Source: a virus (taxonomy: Duplodnaviria; Heunggongvirae; Uroviricota; Caudoviricetes). From it: a stretch of DNA of 29,651 nt. A program made the position numbers and the translations under genes. The notes below the pieces were generated by a model. That model ran no database searches. It worked only from the letters and a program-made list of their open reading frames with translations, and was not told the origin of the DNA. The stretch is taken from the IMG/VR virus record IMGVR_UViG_2563366842_000009; one strand, 5' to 3'. Positions 172-8,124 of the stretch are shown here, piece by piece; the stretch's first letter is position 1; each line of letters starts with the position of its first letter.

Positions 172-1221
172 CTATGAAACCTCTGCCGCCACATTGTCGC
201 CAACATACAGCGATAACGGATTGAGGGTGACAGCTTGTTCAAGGTGGTCAGGAGCAAAGTGTGCATACTTCATTGTTTCTCGAATATTGGCATGCCCGAG
301 AATTTTCTGCAGCACCAGTATATTCCCGCCGTTCATCATAAAATGTGCACCAAAAGTATGACGCAAAACGTGCGTCTTCTGCCCTTCCGTCAATTCAATA
401 TTCGTTAGTTTGAGCATCTTTTTAAACTCCTGATAGCAGGGTTTAAACATTCTGCCTTGACGTTCGGACAACTCGTCGTACAGCCATTTAGGGATAGGAA
501 CTGTGCGATTCTTCTTACCTTTGGTTTTGGTGAACGTCAGTTTATATGGAGAAAGTTGCGGGCGGGTCAATCTCTCCGCTTCCCCCCATCGAGCGCCGGT
601 TGCAAGGCACACCTTAACAATCATGGTGAGGTCTTCTTTGCCGTATTGCTCGCAGGCTCGAAACAGCTCAGGGAGTTGAGACAAAGTCAGCCATGACATT
701 TCTTTCTCAGCTTCTTTGAATACTCGGATCCCATCAAGTGGATTGGGTAGGCTCCATTCCCCTAACCGGCGGAGCTCATTAAACACTGCTTCTAGGTATT
801 GTTGTTCGCGATTGACGGTTATAGGTTTGGCGATCCATTTCGAGGGGTCTTTATGATAACCATTGTCTATTTCACCACGTAATCGACGGTCACGATAATG
901 AGCCCAGTCTTTCGCGGTAAGGCGAGATGCAATCGGGTCGCCAAGTCCATTACATACGATTTGAAGCTTTGCAAACCTCGACTTACTGGCGACTAACGCT
1001 TGACCGTGCAAATTGTGCCAAAGCTGAATAATCTCGCTTAAGCGTCGGCGGTCTTCTTTCTTGCCGAGCCACGGCTTATCTTCACTCTCGCTTTTGGTAA
1101 ATGCTTCGAATGCCTCGGCCTCACCTTTGGTATTGAATTGCCGACGTATACGCCGCCCTTCTCTACCATTTGGATAGAGCTCGCATAACCATTTGCCATT
1201 TTTTTGCTTACTTACAGTCAT
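172..1221 (-). CDS. int: Phage integrase, tyrosine recombinase (P2/186 Int family)
   Basis: 349-aa ORF at the prophage end adjacent to the repressor; C-terminal catalytic region with LRHTFGAHF, LGH and a Tyr-containing tail typical of tyrosine recombinases. Confidence 0.9.
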   Translation of the reverse strand: MTVSKQKNGKWLCELYPNGREGRRIRRQFNTKGEAEAFEAFTKSESEDKPWLGKKEDRRRLSEIIQLWHNLHGQALVASKSRFAKLQIVCNGLGDPIASRLTAKDWAHYRDRRLRGEIDNGYHKDPSKWIAKPITVNREQQYLEAVFNELRRLGEWSLPNPLDGIRVFKEAEKEMSWLTLSQLPELFRACEQYGKEDLTMIVKVCLATGARWGEAERLTRPQLSPYKLTFTKTKGKKNRTVPIPKWLYDELSERQGRMFKPCYQEFKKMLKLTNIELTEGQKTHVLRHTFGAHFMMNGGNILVLQKILGHANIRETMKYAHFAPDHLEQAVTLNPLSLYVGDNVAAEVS

Positions 1222-1243: not shown

Positions 1244-1582
1244 TTATTCGCAAAGTGCTGTTGCGGCATCCATTACAGGATCCAAAGGAATTTTTACACC
1301 TGCATACTCTGGACTGTCTTTCCAAACAGCATCAATATTGCTCCCCTCAAGCTTTCCAGACTTTACTCCATCAATAGCAAAACCATTTAATGGGTATCGG
1401 TCATCAGTTGCTTTGTCGTACACAAAGGCATACTTACCGTTGACGCAAGACACCGTAGCTTTTTCAAAAGTTAACGGCCAATCATCACCAAACTTAGTGC
1501 CGTCTAAATCCTGTGTTTTTTCAGAGGCTAAGGAGCCAAAAGAAAAGGTAAGAAGCATAGCTAAAAAGAGTTTACGTTTCAT
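1244..1582 (-). CDS. Small secreted (signal-peptide) protein, cargo/moron between cI and int; function unknown
   Basis: Start taken at the internal Met (MKRKLFLAMLLTFSFGSLA|SE...) with an AAGGGA RBS 8 nt after the repressor stop; the track ORF extends to 1654 but that overlaps the repressor 3' end. Hydrophobic N-terminal signal peptide with an SLA cleavage-like site, no lipobox Cys. Local GC is visibly lower than the backbone. Confidence 0.6.
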   Translation of the reverse strand: MKRKLFLAMLLTFSFGSLASEKTQDLDGTKFGDDWPLTFEKATVSCVNGKYAFVYDKATDDRYPLNGFAIDGVKSGKLEGSNIDAVWKDSPEYAGVKIPLDPVMDAATALCE

Positions 1583-1590
1583 AATTTCCC

Positions 1591-2451
1591 TTATACGTGT
1601 TTTTCCAATGTGAAAACTACAACCCCGGCAGGCGTAATGTCGGTAATGTTGCATTCAAACTCAGCAGACTTATTTGACAACCTGACTTTTCCACCAGGTA
1701 AACGAATTACATCAAAAACATCAAGAGCGCCGTCGATATCAATTAACCAGCGGCCATTACTTATATTCGAAGCAGAACAGTCGACAAGCCAAGAGGCGGC
1801 CACACCGTCAACAAAAATCAATTCCCCTGAGTTAGAAGGAATCATTGAGGGGTCAGGCTGCCACGTTCCTGCGTCCTTAAGCTCACCAGATTCGAGGCGA
1901 GATTTTTTAATAGAAAAACCAGATGTGACACCTTCCCTGTTAGCTCGCATTTGCCCCTTGCCTGTTGCTAACCATTCCAGTGACGTATCGGTATCAAGAG
2001 CGCATGTAACAACAACATCACCGGGGAAAAAATCTCGCCTTACCCATGTGCTAATTGTGCCAGAGGAAATGCCGAGCAAATCACCAAGCTCCTTTTGCAT
2101 GGTAAAGCCGTACGCATCAAGAATCCTACGCAAAACGGTTTTACCACCATTCGTCATAATCTCGTCATAAAGCTCTTTGCCTTTTAACTTGCAACCGGCA
2201 CGCTCGCAATTTGCATTTGCAAGCTCTCCATTTACAAGCCAATTGATATCAGCTCCCGTGTCAAGACAACACCTAACTATGACGTTGCCAGGTATTGCAT
2301 CACGCTGAACCCAGCCGCTAACGCTGTGTTTAGCGATACCTAGCAGGTCAGCCAAATCCTTTTGCATCTTGACGCCATAGGCTGACATTAAGCGTTCCAA
2401 TACGCCGTTCGTTGCACTAACACGCCACTGAACATCAAGCTCAGAACTCAT
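1591..2451 (-). CDS. cI: CI-type immunity repressor (186 CI family) with a tandemly duplicated N-terminal HTH domain
   Basis: 286 aa. Two adjacent segments (about aa 16-78 and 106-166) are clearly paralogous (VLERLMSAYGVKMQKDLADLLGIAKHSVSGWVQRDAIPGNVIVRCCLDTGADINWLVNGE vs VLRRILDAYGFTMQKELGDLLGISSGTISTWVRRDFFPGDVVVTCALDTDTSLEWLATGK). The C-terminal part resembles the 186 CI C-terminal domain as I recall it (...WLVDI.GA......LPG.K......FEC...). Divergent from the Apl-like gene, upstream of int as in 186. Confidence 0.8.
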   Translation of the reverse strand: MSSELDVQWRVSATNGVLERLMSAYGVKMQKDLADLLGIAKHSVSGWVQRDAIPGNVIVRCCLDTGADINWLVNGELANANCERAGCKLKGKELYDEIMTNGGKTVLRRILDAYGFTMQKELGDLLGISSGTISTWVRRDFFPGDVVVTCALDTDTSLEWLATGKGQMRANREGVTSGFSIKKSRLESGELKDAGTWQPDPSMIPSNSGELIFVDGVAASWLVDCSASNISNGRWLIDIDGALDVFDVIRLPGGKVRLSNKSAEFECNITDITPAGVVVFTLEKHV

Positions 2452-2480
2452 AAAAACCCCTATAGATAATTTTATGGGTG

Positions 2481-2509
2481 TTTACAGAAAACTTTTTACG
2501 ATCTATAGT
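2481..2509 (+). promoter_or_regulatory. Candidate lytic promoter (pR analogue): -35 TTTACA (2481..2486), 17-bp spacer, -10 TATAGT (2504..2509)
   Basis: Sigma70-like hexamers with canonical spacing in the cI/apl divergent intergenic region, about 65 nt upstream of the ATG at 2573, which has an AGGAG RBS. Confidence 0.5.
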
Positions 2510-2572
2510 GGCGTTCATCGACCAAGATGCACACCACTGCACTACATTTCAAACAACAGGAGATAATGCGAT

Positions 2573-2926
2573 ATGTCAGATGCAAAATCAATCCCGCTGC
2601 ATGACACACAAAACTTACAAAATCAAACTGTATTGCTAGACGCTGGTCAGTTCAACGCGCTTGTAACCATGATGCAGCTATCCATGCAAAACATGATTCG
2701 TACAGCGATGTTAGACACCATGTCAGTAAAAGACTTCGCCGCCGCCCGTGGCGTTAGCGAGCGTCTGGTCTGGCAATGGATTGATGAGGGCGTCCTTCTC
2801 AAAGCTCCCACCAAAGATGTTACCAGCAAAGAAAAAGCCGCTAAGCGTAGCCGCACCCTTATCAACGTCAAAGCATGGCGTGACAAACTGACCCAGCAAG
2901 CTATCGATTGCCGTTATATCAACTAA
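2573..2926 (+). CDS. Apl/Cox-like small DNA-binding regulator/excisionase (putative)
   Basis: First gene of the rightward early operon, divergent from cI, the position occupied by apl in 186 and cox in P2. Contains an HTH-like segment (VKDFAAARGVSERLVWQWIDEG). No close recalled match, so assignment rests on position. Confidence 0.5.
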   Translation: MSDAKSIPLHDTQNLQNQTVLLDAGQFNALVTMMQLSMQNMIRTAMLDTMSVKDFAAARGVSERLVWQWIDEGVLLKAPTKDVTSKEKAAKRSRTLINVKAWRDKLTQQAIDCRYIN

Positions 2927-2976
2927 CAGTCATCGCTTAACTGAACTTGATTTTGCAAGTTAAAGGGAGTTACAGC

Positions 2977-3486
2977 ATGTTAGATTTTCGTGTTTCGTCA
3001 CATGCGCACTTTGACGAGGCCTGCAGAAAATTCGCAGCTACTCATAACGTGAAAGAACTAGCGAATAAAGCCGGAATCAAGCCGCATACGCTTTACAACA
3101 AACTCAACCCAGAACAGCCGCACCAGTTAACGCCGCGTGAAATCTGGACACTGACAGACCTGACCGAAGACTCGACTCTCGTCGATGGTTTTCTGGCGCA
3201 GATCCATTGTCTGCCATGCGTACCGGTCAACGAGCTGGCAAAAGAGAAATTGCAATCCTACGTCATGCACGCAATGAGTGAACTAGGCGAACTGGCAAGC
3301 GGTGCAGTTTCCGGCGACCGCCTCACGCCAGCCAAAAAACAAAACATGATTGCTAGCGTAAATGCGGGGATTCGCATGTTGTCATTATCGGCAATGGCGC
3401 TGCATGCACGCCTGCAGACTAATCCCGCTATGTCGAGCGTAGTCGATACTATGAGCGGTATTGGCGCATCGTTTGGTCTGATTTGA
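2977..3486 (+). CDS. cII: CII-like lysogeny-establishment transcriptional activator (186 CII family)
   Basis: Start chosen at ATG 2977 with AAGGGAG RBS, giving 169 aa. Strong similarity to 186 CII as recalled (LNPEQPHQ.TP, TDLTEDSTLVDGFLAQIHCLPCVPVNELAK, C-terminal NPAMSSVVDTMSGIGASFGLI). Confidence 0.85.
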   Translation: MLDFRVSSHAHFDEACRKFAATHNVKELANKAGIKPHTLYNKLNPEQPHQLTPREIWTLTDLTEDSTLVDGFLAQIHCLPCVPVNELAKEKLQSYVMHAMSELGELASGAVSGDRLTPAKKQNMIASVNAGIRMLSLSAMALHARLQTNPAMSSVVDTMSGIGASFGLI

Positions 3487-7664: not shown

Positions 7665-7684
7665 TACTGTATAAACATACAGTA
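7665..7684. promoter_or_regulatory. LexA (SOS) box TACTGTATAAACATACAGTA
   Basis: Perfect CTGT-N8-ACAG dyad with flanking TA/TA, about 20 nt upstream of a GGGAGGG RBS and ATG 7705; corresponds in position to the LexA-controlled p95/tum promoter of 186. Confidence 0.8.
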
Positions 7685-7704
7685 CACCCTATGGGAGGGA
7701 TTTC

Positions 7705-7887
7705 ATGGTTGGCGAACATTTCAGCCGAACGCAGCAAAAGTGGGCTTGTGTGCAATTTATCGCCGAGGTATCTCTGATTGCAAACTGCAAGCCATCAGAC
7801 TTAAAGCTCGCGCTCACTCTCATTGCAGACCTAGCAAACAGCGAAAATAACGAAACCGAAGATGATATTTTTTATAAGGCTGATTAG
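7705..7887 (+). CDS. SOS-operon ORF 1 (60 aa), possible N-terminal part of a Tum-like antirepressor
   Basis: Immediately downstream of the LexA box with a strong RBS; ends at TAG 7885..7887, in the same frame as the DinI-like ORF that starts one codon later. Confidence 0.55.
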   Translation: MVGEHFSRTQQKWACVQFIAEVSLIANCKPSDLKLALTLIADLANSENNETEDDIFYKAD

Positions 7888-7890
7888 ATT

Positions 7891-8124
7891 ATGAGAATCA
7901 ATATCACGTTGGATAAAGAGCAAAAAATTAGTCAGGCAACGTTGGATGCACTAGAGGCTGAGCTGTACCGCAATCTTCAACCTATTTACCCAAAGACTGC
8001 TATCCGCATTCGCAAGGGCTCCGCAAATGGTGTTGAGCTAAGCGGTTTGAAACTGGACGAAGATAAAAAACGAGTAATGGAAATCATGCAGCAAGTATGG
8101 GAAGACGATAGCTGGCTGCATTAA
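7891..8124 (+). CDS. DinI-family protein (Tum C-terminal-like module)
   Basis: 77 aa aligning along its length with E. coli DinI as recalled (MRI.[IV]T..K......A.DAL..EL.R......P......R.......LS........K.R..EI.Q..WE....W); low-GC region. Confidence 0.8.
   Translation: MRINITLDKEQKISQATLDALEAELYRNLQPIYPKTAIRIRKGSANGVELSGLKLDEDKKRVMEIMQQVWEDDSWLH

What the first reader, a model, noticed from the sequence alone, without database searches (positions are those of the whole stretch)
1591..2451. Immunity repressor with a tandem duplication of the CI-type N-terminal DNA-binding domain
The 286-aa repressor contains two adjacent paralogous copies of the roughly 60-aa 186-CI-type HTH domain, followed by a 186-CI-like C-terminal domain. 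As I recall it, 186 CI (about 192 aa) has one such domain. A single polypeptide with two DNA-binding modules would change operator geometry and immunity specificity.
Basis: seen in the sequence. Interest (0 to 1): 0.6.

Follow-up and report, generated by a model that had tools for sequence, protein, structure and literature searches.

The report
Phage repressor with two DNA-reading heads
This is the immunity repressor of a PSP3-like (186-family) temperate phage; it really does carry two copies of the DNA-binding domain, and comparison with relatives suggests the outer copy sets which phage is repressed while the inner copy binds two shared helper sites flanking the switch.

Summary
ORF 1591..2451(-) encodes a 286-aa CI with two Pfam PF07022 HTH domains (D1 aa 14-76, D2 aa 103-166) and one PF16452 C-terminal domain. 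It is 98.6% identical to Salmonella phage PSP3 CI. The copies share 52% aa and 32% third-codon-position identity, so this is an old duplication, not an assembly artefact.

The architecture is widespread and has arisen at least three times in the family. I found no description of it; one 2011 comparison ascribed the extra length to a longer C-terminal domain.

Comparative evidence suggests a division of labour:
- D2's recognition helix (ISSGTISTWVRR) is nearly invariant. Single-domain relatives with that helix carry AACTTG-N6-CAAGTT at pR.
- In this window that palindrome lies where 186 has FR (2944-2961) and FL (2208-2225, inside cI). Lineages with an ISTATISTW D2 helix carry AATTCG-N6-CGAATT at both sites.
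- D1 falls into at least six types and is exchanged together with the pR operator as one cassette.

The inferred model is that D1 reads the immunity-specific pR operator and D2 reads FL/FR. No binding was tested. I rate it a new variant of a known kind, of moderate to good interest.

The parts
1591..2451 (-). cI, 286-aa immunity repressor (stop codon included)
   Evidence: ORF. 98.6% identical to PSP3 CI. Pfam 2x PF07022 + PF16452.
2224..2412 (-). D1, the N-terminal extra HTH domain (aa 14-76); recognition helix AKHSVSGWVQRD
   Evidence: Variable among relatives, with at least 6 helix types. AF2 predicts it folded, pLDDT about 80-86.
2146..2223 (-). D1-D2 linker (aa 77-102): a flexible stretch followed by the conserved helix KGKELYDEIM
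   Evidence: AF2 gives pLDDT below 50 for aa 78-90 and a helix at 92-101. G91, K92, Y95, G102 and G103 are invariant.
1954..2145 (-). D2, the inner HTH domain (aa 103-166); recognition helix ISSGTISTWVRR; collinear with the single NTD of 186 CI
   Evidence: The helix is nearly invariant across the tandem group. The same helix occurs in single-domain relatives.
1594..1914 (-). C-terminal oligomerisation domain (aa 180-286), 186-CI type
   Evidence: PF16452, E = 1.6e-20. Aligns to 2fjr and 2fkd. AF2 predicts a beta domain with pLDDT about 88-92.
2481..2509 (+). Predicted lytic promoter pR: TTTACA (2481-2486), 17-nt spacer, TATAGT (2504-2509)
   Evidence: 10 of 12 consensus matches. Both hexamers are conserved at this position in all related loci.
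2461..2507 (.). Candidate type-specific pR operator: inverted TATAGAT arms at 2461-2467 and 2501-2507, with the dyad centre in the -35 hexamer (about 2484)
   Evidence: TATAGAT occurs only twice in 29.6 kb, both here. Repeat I2. Dyad score 15/27, against a null of 9.7 +/- 1.7 with 99th percentile 14.
2208..2225 (.). FL-like palindrome AATTTGCATTTGCAAGCT inside cI (codes for linker residues ELANAN)
   Evidence: 10/12 arm matches to AACTTG-N6-CAAGTT; one of only two hits at or above 10/12 in the window. Same position in many lineages. The Leu77 codon is CTT in 59/59 sequences.
2944..2961 (.). FR-like perfect palindrome AACTTGATTTTGCAAGTT, between the orf30 stop and the cII start
   Evidence: 12/12 arm matches. 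Conserved upstream of cII in most lineages. Same place as the annotated FR of 186.
2576..2628 (.). Two partial copies of the D2-type motif (TTGATTTTGCA at 2576-2593 and TTGATTTTGTAAGTT at 2611-2628) in the 5' end of orf30; possible weak sites over pL
   Evidence: (repeat D5). Below the significance threshold on their own.
2573..2926 (+). orf30 homologue, the likely Apl/Cox analogue (first gene of the lytic operon)
   Evidence: phrog_3554, plus a weak match to phrog_575 'Cox-like excisionase and repressor' (E = 6.4e-5). Position as in PSP3.
2977..3486 (+). cII (CP76 family)
   Evidence: PF06892, E = 7.9e-46. PSP3 annotation.
1244..1582 (-). DUF2511 (YebY-like) gene between cI and int in the lysogenic operon
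   Evidence: PF10709. PSP3 orf28 is 339 nt.
172..1221 (-). Integrase
   Evidence: PF24624 + PF00589.
7667..7887 (+). LexA-box-like sequence CTGTATAAACATACAG (7667-7682) and tumA (7705-7887), the presumed SOS-controlled antirepressor of this CI
   Evidence: tblastn gives 100% identity to PSP3 TumA; the LexA-box pattern was found in the same call. PSP3 annotation reads 'UV induction of prophage'.

Best explanation
This is the CI immunity repressor of a PSP3-like (Eganvirus, 186-family) temperate phage. An old internal duplication gave it two 186-type HTH domains ahead of the 186-type oligomerisation domain. Proposed mechanism, with status marked. (1) Inferred: the C-terminal domain oligomerises as in 186 CI. 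(2) Inferred from covariation: D2 keeps the ancestral specificity and binds two flanking palindromes of the form AACTTG-N6-CAAGTT. One lies inside cI at 2208-2225 (FL-like) and one just upstream of cII at 2944-2961 (FR-like). They sit about 270 and 470 bp from pR, as FL and FR flank pR in 186. (3) Inferred from cassette structure: D1, tethered by a flexible linker, binds the type-specific operator overlapping pR. In this window that operator is the inverted TATAGAT pair at 2461-2467 and 2501-2507, centred on the -35 hexamer. D1 therefore sets immunity specificity. (4) Consequence: immunity can be exchanged as one small cassette (pR operator plus D1) without touching the distant FL and FR sites. 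This explains the mosaic pattern among relatives. (5) Inferred: induction is by the LexA-controlled antirepressor TumA. TumA is identical in phages with three different D1 types, so it probably contacts D2, the linker or the CTD rather than D1.
For: Identity and architecture:
- establish the protein, its domains and its 186-type context.

D2 conserved, D1 variable:
- In 83 non-redundant tandem CIs, D2 is 67-100% identical to the window protein and its helix 3 is nearly invariant. D1 is 38-100% identical and falls into at least 6 helix types.

D2 linked to the palindrome:
- 21 distinct single-domain CI loci have GLSSGTISTW[IV]RR as the helix of their only HTH. All carry AACTTG-N6-CAAGTT (at least 10/12 arm matches) centred at -47 from cI, which is at pR.
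- In the window the palindrome occurs at or above 10/12 only twice in 29.6 kb (null 0.95), at 2944-2961 (12/12) and 2208-2225 (10/12).
- Across 23 tandem lineages there are 1.52 hits per locus against 0.17 expected. Nearly all fall at -346..-524 (upstream of cII) or +217..+235 (in cI).
- Lineages whose D2 helix is ISTATISTW carry AATTCG-N6-CGAATT at both positions instead.
- The Leu codon inside the FL-like site is CTT in 59/59 sequences, although CTT is 32% of all Leu codons in these genes.
- 186 has annotated FR and FL at the equivalent places. Their role in looping on the CI wheel is described in PMC3675496.

D1 linked to pR:
- Window versus SW9 is 100% identical in DNA from -500 to -80. 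Identity then drops to 27-70% from the pR -10 through D1, and recovers to 73-83% in D2.
- L016 and L017 have identical D2 helices and identical CTDs. They differ in D1 helix 3 (S34A, G40S) and the N-terminal arm, and their operators differ symmetrically in both arms.
- Type-specific repeats flank the -35 hexamer in each lineage. TATAGAT occurs only twice in the window, both in this operator.
- The 18-mer centred on the pR dyad scores 4/12 by hand count and nothing at pR reaches the 9/12 listing threshold.
- D1 keeps the scaffold residues of D2: Q30/Q119, W47/W136 and R50/R139 are all invariant.

Flexibility and induction:
- AF2 predicts three folded domains with low-confidence linkers at aa 78-90 and 170-177 and pTM 0.38.
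- TumA and the LexA-box-like sequence are; TumA identity across D1 types is.
Against: - No binding experiment exists for this protein or any tandem relative. Every domain-to-site assignment is comparative.
- D1 and the pR operator are adjacent on the DNA, so their co-inheritance could be plain linkage.
- Sequences in the covariation counts are phylogenetically related, so the counts overstate independence.
- The distal TATAGAT arm is imperfect in PSP3 itself (ATATGTAG) and in many close relatives (CTGTAG). Dyad scores in several lineages are only at the 95th percentile of the null. The exact D1 site is therefore not defined.
- Pantoea lineages with an unchanged D2 helix have a degenerate FR (GTTTGATTATTTAAG).
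- Some single-domain relatives with the ELSSGT or DLSSGT form of the helix have different arms at pR (CCTC/GAGG or CCTT/AAGG) while keeping AACTTG...CAAGTT upstream of cII. The helix alone does not fix specificity.
- The FR-like palindrome lies within the presumed pR transcript and could also act as an RNA hairpin.
- pL was not located.
Confidence: 0.6

Rival explanations
1. Both heads work together at pR. Each half of a roughly 40-50 bp dyad operator holds one sub-site for D2 (the conserved TAGATC next to the -10) and one for D1 (variable), so a CI dimer places four HTH domains on pR. The FL/FR-like palindromes are additional D2 sites.
For: A dyad centred on the -35 hexamer recurs in several lineages with inner and outer symmetric blocks. 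L020 scores 18/27, with outer AGATCCG/AGATTTG and inner TTTTCATAT blocks. TAGATC next to the -10 is conserved in almost all lineages whatever the D1 type.
Against: TAGATC is unlike the AACTTG/CAAGTT arms tied to the D2 helix by the single-domain relatives. The conserved block overlaps the -10 hexamer and a GATC, so it may be conserved for promoter reasons. The right-hand arm shows no conserved D2-like block. In L016 versus L017 both inner and outer sub-sites change while D2 is unchanged.
Confidence: 0.2
2. Only D1 binds DNA. D2 is kept as a docking surface for the TumA antirepressor or as a structural spacer, and the conserved palindromes are read by another protein (CII or the Apl analogue) or act as RNA structures.
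For: TumA is 100% identical in phages with three D1 types but nearly identical D2. The FR-like palindrome lies in the orf30-cII intergenic region of the presumed pR transcript.
Against: The same palindrome sits at pR, beside the -35 hexamer, in 21 distinct single-domain loci whose only HTH has the D2-type helix. Both the FL-like and FR-like sites change arms together with the D2 helix. D2 keeps every HTH scaffold residue. A palindrome inside the cI coding sequence with a frozen CTT codon is hard to explain by CII or Apl.
Confidence: 0.1
3. D2 does all the operator recognition, as the single NTD does in 186. D1 is a non-DNA-binding accessory, for example a decoy for foreign antirepressors or a modulator of oligomerisation, and it varies because it is under diversifying or relaxed selection.
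For: D2 plus the CTD is collinear with the whole of 186 CI. The 186 HTH is reported to recognise two distinct sequences (title of Shearwin et al. 2002, reference 5 of PMC3675496), so a single domain can serve several site types.
Against: Phages with near-identical D2 have completely different DNA from the pR -10 to the cI start, and pR has no D2-type motif. D1 keeps the conserved Gln, Trp and Arg of the HTH scaffold while its helix-3 specificity positions vary in discrete types. That is the pattern of a DNA reader with changing specificity, not of a decaying domain.
Confidence: 0.08
4. The internal repeat is an assembly or annotation artefact, or a fusion of two genes.
For: None found.
Against: The copies share 54% nt and 32% third-position identity, with a longest shared run of 11 nt. 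The same uninterrupted ORF occurs in isolated phages PSP3, SEN1 and vB_EcoM-613R3. It is also present in 42 of 5,426 complete E. coli genomes (at least 80% of cI plus the intergenic region covered, 95-99% identity) and in more than 100 protein clusters.
Confidence: 0.01

Closest known systems
Coliphage 186 CI repressor (PDB 2FJR, 2FKD) and its pR / FL / FR switch
   Same: Same Pfam domains (PF07022, PF16452). D2 plus the CTD aligns collinearly with residues 9-182 of 186 CI. Same gene order: the lysogenic operon (cI ... int) lies opposite apl-like and cII genes. 6-N5/6-6 palindromes sit inside cI and just upstream of cII, where 186 has FL and FR. A tum-type antirepressor lies behind a LexA-box-like sequence.
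   Different: There are two HTH domains per chain instead of one. The D1 and D2 domains are 38% and 37% identical to the 186 NTD. The Apl analogue is unrelated in sequence to Apl (PMC3448106). A DUF2511 gene is inserted between cI and int. In 186 one HTH serves both the pR and the flanking sites; here the two classes of site appear to be split between two domains (inferred).
Salmonella phage PSP3 CI (NP_958086) and relatives SEN1, SW9, SI22, Midge, RCIP0057
   Same: PSP3 and SEN1 CI are 98.3-98.6% identical to the window protein. SW9, SI22, Midge and RCIP0057 share D2 and the CTD. All share an identical TumA.
   Different: SW9/SI22 and Midge/RCIP0057 carry different D1 types and different DNA from the pR -10 to the cI start. 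They are predicted to be heteroimmune; this was not tested.
Single-domain 186-family CI proteins with the helix GLSSGTISTW[IV]RR (e.g. Chimaeribacter prophage L025; IMG/VR loci L107-L128)
   Same: Their single HTH is 70-79% identical to D2 in the complete single-domain representatives P0133, P0135 and P0136. They use the same palindrome, AACTTG-N6-CAAGTT.
   Different: They are 196 aa with one HTH. The palindrome is at pR itself (-47), not only at flanking positions.
Monomeric two-domain immunity repressor of cluster A mycobacteriophages (PMC9283540)
   Same: It is a phage immunity repressor that uses two DNA-binding domains in one chain (title and abstract).
   Different: It is unrelated in sequence, its two domains are not paralogous copies, and it acts as a monomer on an asymmetric site. 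Here an oligomerisation domain follows the two heads, and the heads appear to read separate sites.
Engineered single-chain 434 repressors and eukaryotic POU domains (from my own knowledge, not checked here)
   Same: Two HTH-type modules joined by a flexible linker, one of which can be changed to give a new composite specificity.
   Different: These are artificial or eukaryotic, and both modules bind one contiguous site. There is no homology.

Membership tests
186-type phage CI repressor (Pfam Phage_CI_repr + Phage_CI_C) | N-terminal Phage_CI_repr (PF07022) HTH domain | tested here: met
   Whole-protein E = 1.3e-52 with two stretches. Aligns to 186 CI chain 2fjr_A.
186-type phage CI repressor (Pfam Phage_CI_repr + Phage_CI_C) | C-terminal Phage_CI_C (PF16452) domain | tested here: met
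   E = 1.6e-20 over aa 180-274. Aligns to 2fkd and 2fjr. AF2 predicts a beta-rich domain with pLDDT about 90.
186-type phage CI repressor (Pfam Phage_CI_repr + Phage_CI_C) | One HTH domain per chain, as in the solved 186 CI | tested here: not met
   There are two full domains, aa 14-76 and 103-166. This is the variant feature; it does not remove the protein from the family.
186-type phage CI repressor (Pfam Phage_CI_repr + Phage_CI_C) | The C-terminal domain assembles dimers into a 14-mer wheel | not testable with these tools
   Only a monomer model was possible. The wheel is described for 186 in PMC3675496.
186-type lysis-lysogeny switch | cI heads a leftward lysogenic operon ending in int, opposite an apl-like gene followed by cII (CP76) | tested here: met
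   The Apl analogue has only a weak Cox-like match.
186-type lysis-lysogeny switch | Distal CI operators FL (inside cI) and FR (between apl and cII) flanking pR | tested here: met
   Met at the sequence level only. Palindromes lie at 2208-2225 and 2944-2961, the only two hits at or above 10/12 in the window. Positions are conserved across lineages and equivalent to the annotated 186 FL and FR. Binding was not tested.
186-type lysis-lysogeny switch | Face-to-face pR and pL promoters | tested here: inconclusive
   pR is predicted at 2481-2509. No pL-like consensus was found by the scan or by eye.
186-type lysis-lysogeny switch | SOS induction through a LexA-controlled Tum antirepressor rather than CI self-cleavage | tested here: met
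   Met at the sequence level. tumA is at 7705-7884, 100% identical to PSP3 tumA, with CTGTATAAACATACAG at 7667-7682. The PSP3 annotation reads 'UV induction'. No peptidase S24 domain was found in CI.

The most novel reading that the evidence does not exclude
Duplication of the HTH domain split the two recognition tasks that a single 186-type head performs. The inner copy kept the shared flanking sites (FL, FR) needed for long-range cooperativity. The outer copy became free to diversify at pR. The result is a compact, exchangeable immunity cassette (pR operator plus D1). The same architecture arose independently at least three times in the family, which suggests a general route by which temperate phages evolve new immunities without rebuilding a distributed operator set.
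Probability: 0.4. Interest if true: 0.72.

Novelty: new variant of a known kind. Interest (0 to 1): 0.58.

Why it matters
The 186 switch is one of the few genetic switches understood at the level of protein wheels, DNA wrapping and looping. A natural variant in which two recognition tasks sit on two separate heads would be a ready-made tool for dissecting that mechanism, because pR binding and FL/FR looping could be mutated independently.

It would also explain how heteroimmune phages in this group arise by swapping a cassette of about 350 bp, and it gives a concrete example of subfunctionalisation after domain duplication in a transcription factor.

Practically, the D1 helix type plus the pR operator could be used to predict immunity groups of PSP3-like prophages. 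These are common in E. coli, Salmonella, Klebsiella, Enterobacter, Pantoea and Pectobacterium.

Tried and rejected
1. Assembly artefact or gene fusion: rejected.

2. A shorter, 186-sized isoform from internal Met99: rejected. The Met is not conserved; it is Leu or Gln in several lineages.

3. First idea that D2 reads the conserved TAGATC next to the pR -10: demoted to a rival once the single-domain relatives showed that the D2-type helix goes with AACTTG-N6-CAAGTT.

4. Search for distal copies of the D1-type left arm within +/-1.5 kb in nine lineages: nothing above the null. A 10-mer search in the window gave fewer hits than chance.

5. pL promoter: not found.

6. Literature search for any description of the tandem CI: none found. 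Dodd & Egan 2002 (PMC2941640) is not held, so the A-type/B-type site definitions of 186 could not be checked. I rely only on the title of Shearwin et al. 2002 and on PMC3675496.

7. NCBIfam has no model above cut-off for this protein.

8. The AF2 monomer gave no defined inter-domain arrangement (pTM 0.38), so no geometry was derived and no fold search was run.

9. The Klebsiella tandem lineage was examined only briefly. Whether it shows the same division of labour was not established.
Full report
**What is there**

The minus-strand ORF 1591..2451 encodes a 286-aa protein. Pfam finds two stretches of PF07022 (Phage_CI_repr, whole-protein E = 1.3e-52) and one PF16452 (Phage_CI_C, aa 180-274, E = 1.6e-20).

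A local self-alignment pairs aa 14-76 with aa 99-165. It scores 182, against 27 +/- 4 for shuffles. The solved 186 CI (2fjr) aligns collinearly with aa 105-279 only, so aa 1 to about 100 is the extra piece.

I call the outer domain D1 (aa 14-76, window 2224-2412) and the inner one D2 (aa 103-166, window 1954-2145). They are 52% identical in protein, 54% in DNA and 32% at third codon positions, and the longest shared exact run is 11 nt. This is an old, diverged duplication and cannot be a read-collapse artefact.

AlphaFold2 on a 40-sequence alignment gives three confidently folded domains. They are joined by low-confidence linkers at aa 78-90 and 170-177, and the relative arrangement is undefined (pTM 0.38).

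**Whose protein it is**

The protein is 98.6% identical to the annotated CI of Salmonella phage PSP3, 98.6% to vB_EcoM-613R3 and 98.3% to SEN1. The surroundings are a 186-type switch:
- int (172..1221), a DUF2511 gene and cI run leftward.
- An Apl analogue (2573..2926, weak Cox-like match) and cII (CP76 family, 2977..3486) run rightward.

The window also carries tumA (7705-7884), 100% identical to PSP3 tumA, directly behind a LexA-box-like sequence, CTGTATAAACATACAG (7667-7682). Induction is therefore presumably by an SOS-controlled antirepressor, as in 186.

**How common is the architecture**

- The 5.8-billion-protein search returned 731 hits. The best 120 clusters are all 267-290 aa except one 208-aa sequence lacking the C-terminal domain (P0116). 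They come from Klebsiella, Enterobacter, Salmonella, Escherichia, Citrobacter, Pantoea, Brenneria, Kosakonia and others.
- 42 of 5,426 complete E. coli genomes carry cI plus the adjacent intergenic region (at least 80% covered, 95-99% identity).
- An exhaustive profile-free search of 50%-identity representatives gave 421 clusters. Among the 150 listed representatives plus six reference CIs, 105 proteins have one HTH domain, 23 have two and one has three.
- A neighbour-joining tree and pairwise identities of the isolated domains place D1 and D2 of each tandem group nearest to each other or to single-domain proteins of the same neighbourhood. The groups are the PSP3-like group, the Klebsiella Felsduovirus/Elveevirus-like group, and the P0185/P0197/P0198 group. 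This points to at least three independent duplications. The tree rests on 64 columns and is only indicative.

The tandem form is thus a recurrent minority variant of the family, not a rarity.

**Literature**

I found no paper that describes the duplication. [quoted passage not shown] The domain analysis here shows that is not the case.

**D1 varies, D2 does not**

I collected 103 related loci and aligned 83 non-redundant tandem CIs.
- The D2 recognition helix is ISSGTISTW[VI]RR almost everywhere, with ISTATISTW in Pectobacterium lineages and IPSGTMSAW in a few others. D2 identity to the window protein stays at 67-100%, even where the C-terminal domain falls to 36%.
- D1 falls into discrete types: AKHSVSGWVQR (PSP3 and this window), PSNSVSTWVQR (Midge), HANNVSSWLAR (SW9), YANNISSWLAR, AKSNVA[GS]WLQR and PLPTISNWVKR.
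- D1 keeps the invariant scaffold residues that D2 has (Q30/Q119, W47/W136, R50/R139). It looks like a working HTH whose specificity positions change.

**What D2 probably reads**

While looking for 186-like flanking operators I noticed the perfect palindrome AACTTGATTTTGCAAGTT at 2944-2961. It lies between the orf30 stop and the cII start, exactly where 186 has its annotated FR site. Six lines of evidence tie this palindrome to D2.

1. Single-domain relatives. A Chimaeribacter prophage CI with one HTH of the D2 type (L025) has nearly the same sequence in front of its own cI. I fetched relatives of that protein. In 21 distinct single-domain loci with the helix GLSSGTISTW[IV]RR, a palindrome with at least 10 of 12 arm matches to AACTTG-N6-CAAGTT is centred at exactly -47 from the cI start, beside the pR -35 hexamer. 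Some also have a copy at +277, the FL position.
2. The window. Only two 18-mers reach 10/12 in 29.6 kb (0.95 expected). These are 2944-2961 (12/12) and 2208-2225 (10/12), the latter inside cI.
3. Other tandem lineages. Across 23 of them there are 1.52 such hits per locus against 0.17 expected. Nearly all are either just upstream of cII (-346 to -524) or at +217 to +235 in cI.
4. Codon use. The in-gene site encodes the D1-D2 linker (ELANAN and variants). Amino acids in the palindrome's spacer vary, but the arms are kept, and the Leu codon is CTT in 59 of 59 sequences although CTT is 32% of Leu codons in these genes. That argues for selection on the DNA itself.
5. Covariation. Lineages whose D2 helix is ISTATISTW have AATTCG-N6-CGAATT at both positions. 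In L020 the FR-like site scores 12/12 and the FL-like site 11/12 to this pattern. These lineages have no CTTG-type site at the 10/12 threshold.
6. Absence at pR. The 18-mer centred on the window's pR dyad matches only 4/12 arm positions (my count by eye) and nothing there reaches the 9/12 listing threshold.

Two partial copies lie in the 5' end of orf30 (2576-2593 and 2611-2628), where pL would be expected. They are not significant on their own.

**What D1 probably reads**

The predicted pR is TTTACA (2481-2486), a 17-nt spacer, then TATAGT (2504-2509). Both hexamers are conserved in all relatives, while the DNA between and beyond them changes with the D1 type.
- Mosaic boundary. Window versus SW9 is 100% identical from -500 to -80 relative to cI. 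Identity drops to 27-70% from the pR -10 through D1, and rises again to 73-83% in D2. The pR operator and D1 therefore behave as one exchangeable cassette bounded by conserved DNA.
- A natural swap. L016 and L017 encode CIs that differ at about 17 positions. Their D2 helices and C-terminal domains are identical, while D1 helix 3 (S34A, G40S) and the N-terminal arm differ. Their operators differ symmetrically in both arms (CCG...CGG versus CGC...GCG).
- The window's own operator. TATAGAT occurs exactly twice in 29.6 kb, at 2461-2467 and inverted at 2501-2507, with the dyad centre in the -35 hexamer.
- Other lineages. A dyad at that centre recurs: window 15/27, L020 18/27, L082 17/27 and L100 16/27 matched pairs. 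The null is 9.7 +/- 1.7 with a 99th percentile of 14. Other types show type-specific repeats about 21 bp apart (Midge type AAATCGA, SW9 type TTGTTG). That is the two-turn phasing reported for the three 186 pR operators (PMC3675496).

The exact D1 site is not defined. The distal arm is degenerate in PSP3 itself.

**Model and its status**

- Shown: the architecture, its age, its spread, the cassette structure, the positions and conservation of the palindromes, and the two covariation patterns.
- Inferred: D2 binds the FL-like and FR-like sites; D1 binds the pR operator and sets immunity; the C-terminal domain oligomerises as in 186 and brings the sites together.
- Also inferred: TumA acts on a part of CI other than D1. 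TumA is 100% identical in PSP3/SEN1, Midge/RCIP0057 and SW9/SI22, which carry three D1 types.

The title of Shearwin et al. 2002 (reference 5 of PMC3675496) states that the single 186 HTH binds two distinct recognition sequences. If the pR and flanking sites are the two classes (my recollection, not checked), the tandem proteins would have split that double duty between two heads. The benefit would be that immunity can change through one small cassette without co-changing sites 270 and 470 bp away.

Main caveats are linkage between D1 and pR, phylogenetic non-independence of the counts, and exceptions. Pantoea lineages have a degenerate FR with an unchanged D2. Some single-domain relatives with the ELSSGT/DLSSGT form of the helix have other arms at pR. 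No binding data exist.

**Verdict**

The protein is a member of the 186 CI family with one variant feature, two heads per chain. As a sequence it is long known and common. As a mechanism it appears undescribed, and the comparative data give a specific, testable model. I rate it a new variant of a known kind, interest about 0.58.

Noticed in passing
window 1244-1582 (-): A DUF2511 (YebY-like, predicted periplasmic) gene sits between cI and int in the lysogenic operon, so it is presumably expressed from the prophage. The same neighbourhood (recombinase - yebY - PF07022 protein) is mentioned in passing in PMC8689200. Its function in the phage is unknown.
   Followed up: partly
window 2499-2502 (GATC in CGATCTATAGT), and the same position in nearly all related loci: A GATC (Dam site) directly upstream of the pR -10 hexamer is conserved across almost all D1 types and hosts. 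It could be part of an operator, or it could make pR methylation-sensitive.
   Followed up: no
window 2516-2572 (5' leader of the lytic transcript): A roughly 60-bp block is identical or nearly so in phages of different immunity (window, Midge, SW9). It contains GTGCA repeated 10 bp apart (GTGCAGTGGTGTGCA). These may be binding sites for the Apl analogue, by analogy with the phased Apl sites between pR and pL in 186.
   Followed up: no
window 2573-2926 (+): The first lytic gene (PSP3 orf30 homologue) has no Pfam family and only a weak Cox-like PHROG match (E = 6.4e-5). PMC3448106 calls the PsP3 protein a singleton among Cox/Apl proteins. Window and SW9 are 100% identical in DNA across it, which indicates very recent recombination at the pR -10.
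   Followed up: partly
window 7667-8121 (+): A LexA-box-like sequence is followed by tumA (60 aa) and a separate tumB/dinI gene. This is the split form of 186 tum noted in PMC3121763. In the phage collection this TumA occurs only in genomes with a tandem CI, apart from a 44%-identical match in a Yersinia phage.
   Followed up: partly
proteins P0260 (323 aa) and P0212 (525 aa): P0260 has three PF07022-like HTH domains in a row and no recognisable CI C-terminal domain. P0212 is a long array of at least six HTH repeats separated by acidic linkers. Multiplication of this HTH type evidently goes beyond two copies.
   Followed up: no
L004 (Klebsiella phage ST437-OXA245phi4.2), +301 from the cI start: The independently duplicated Klebsiella-type tandem CI has a perfect palindrome, GTCACAACAATTGTGAC, in the DNA coding for its D1-D2 linker. 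This is the same placement as the FL-like site here. Single-domain Cartapus has GTTCTCATAATGAGAAC at +256.
   Followed up: partly
L130-L148 (single-domain CI loci): These single-domain relatives keep AACTTG...CAAGTT upstream of cII but have different arms (CCTC/GAGG or CCTT/AAGG) at pR. One head would then serve two site classes, as reported for 186. They may represent the state before the duplication.
   Followed up: no
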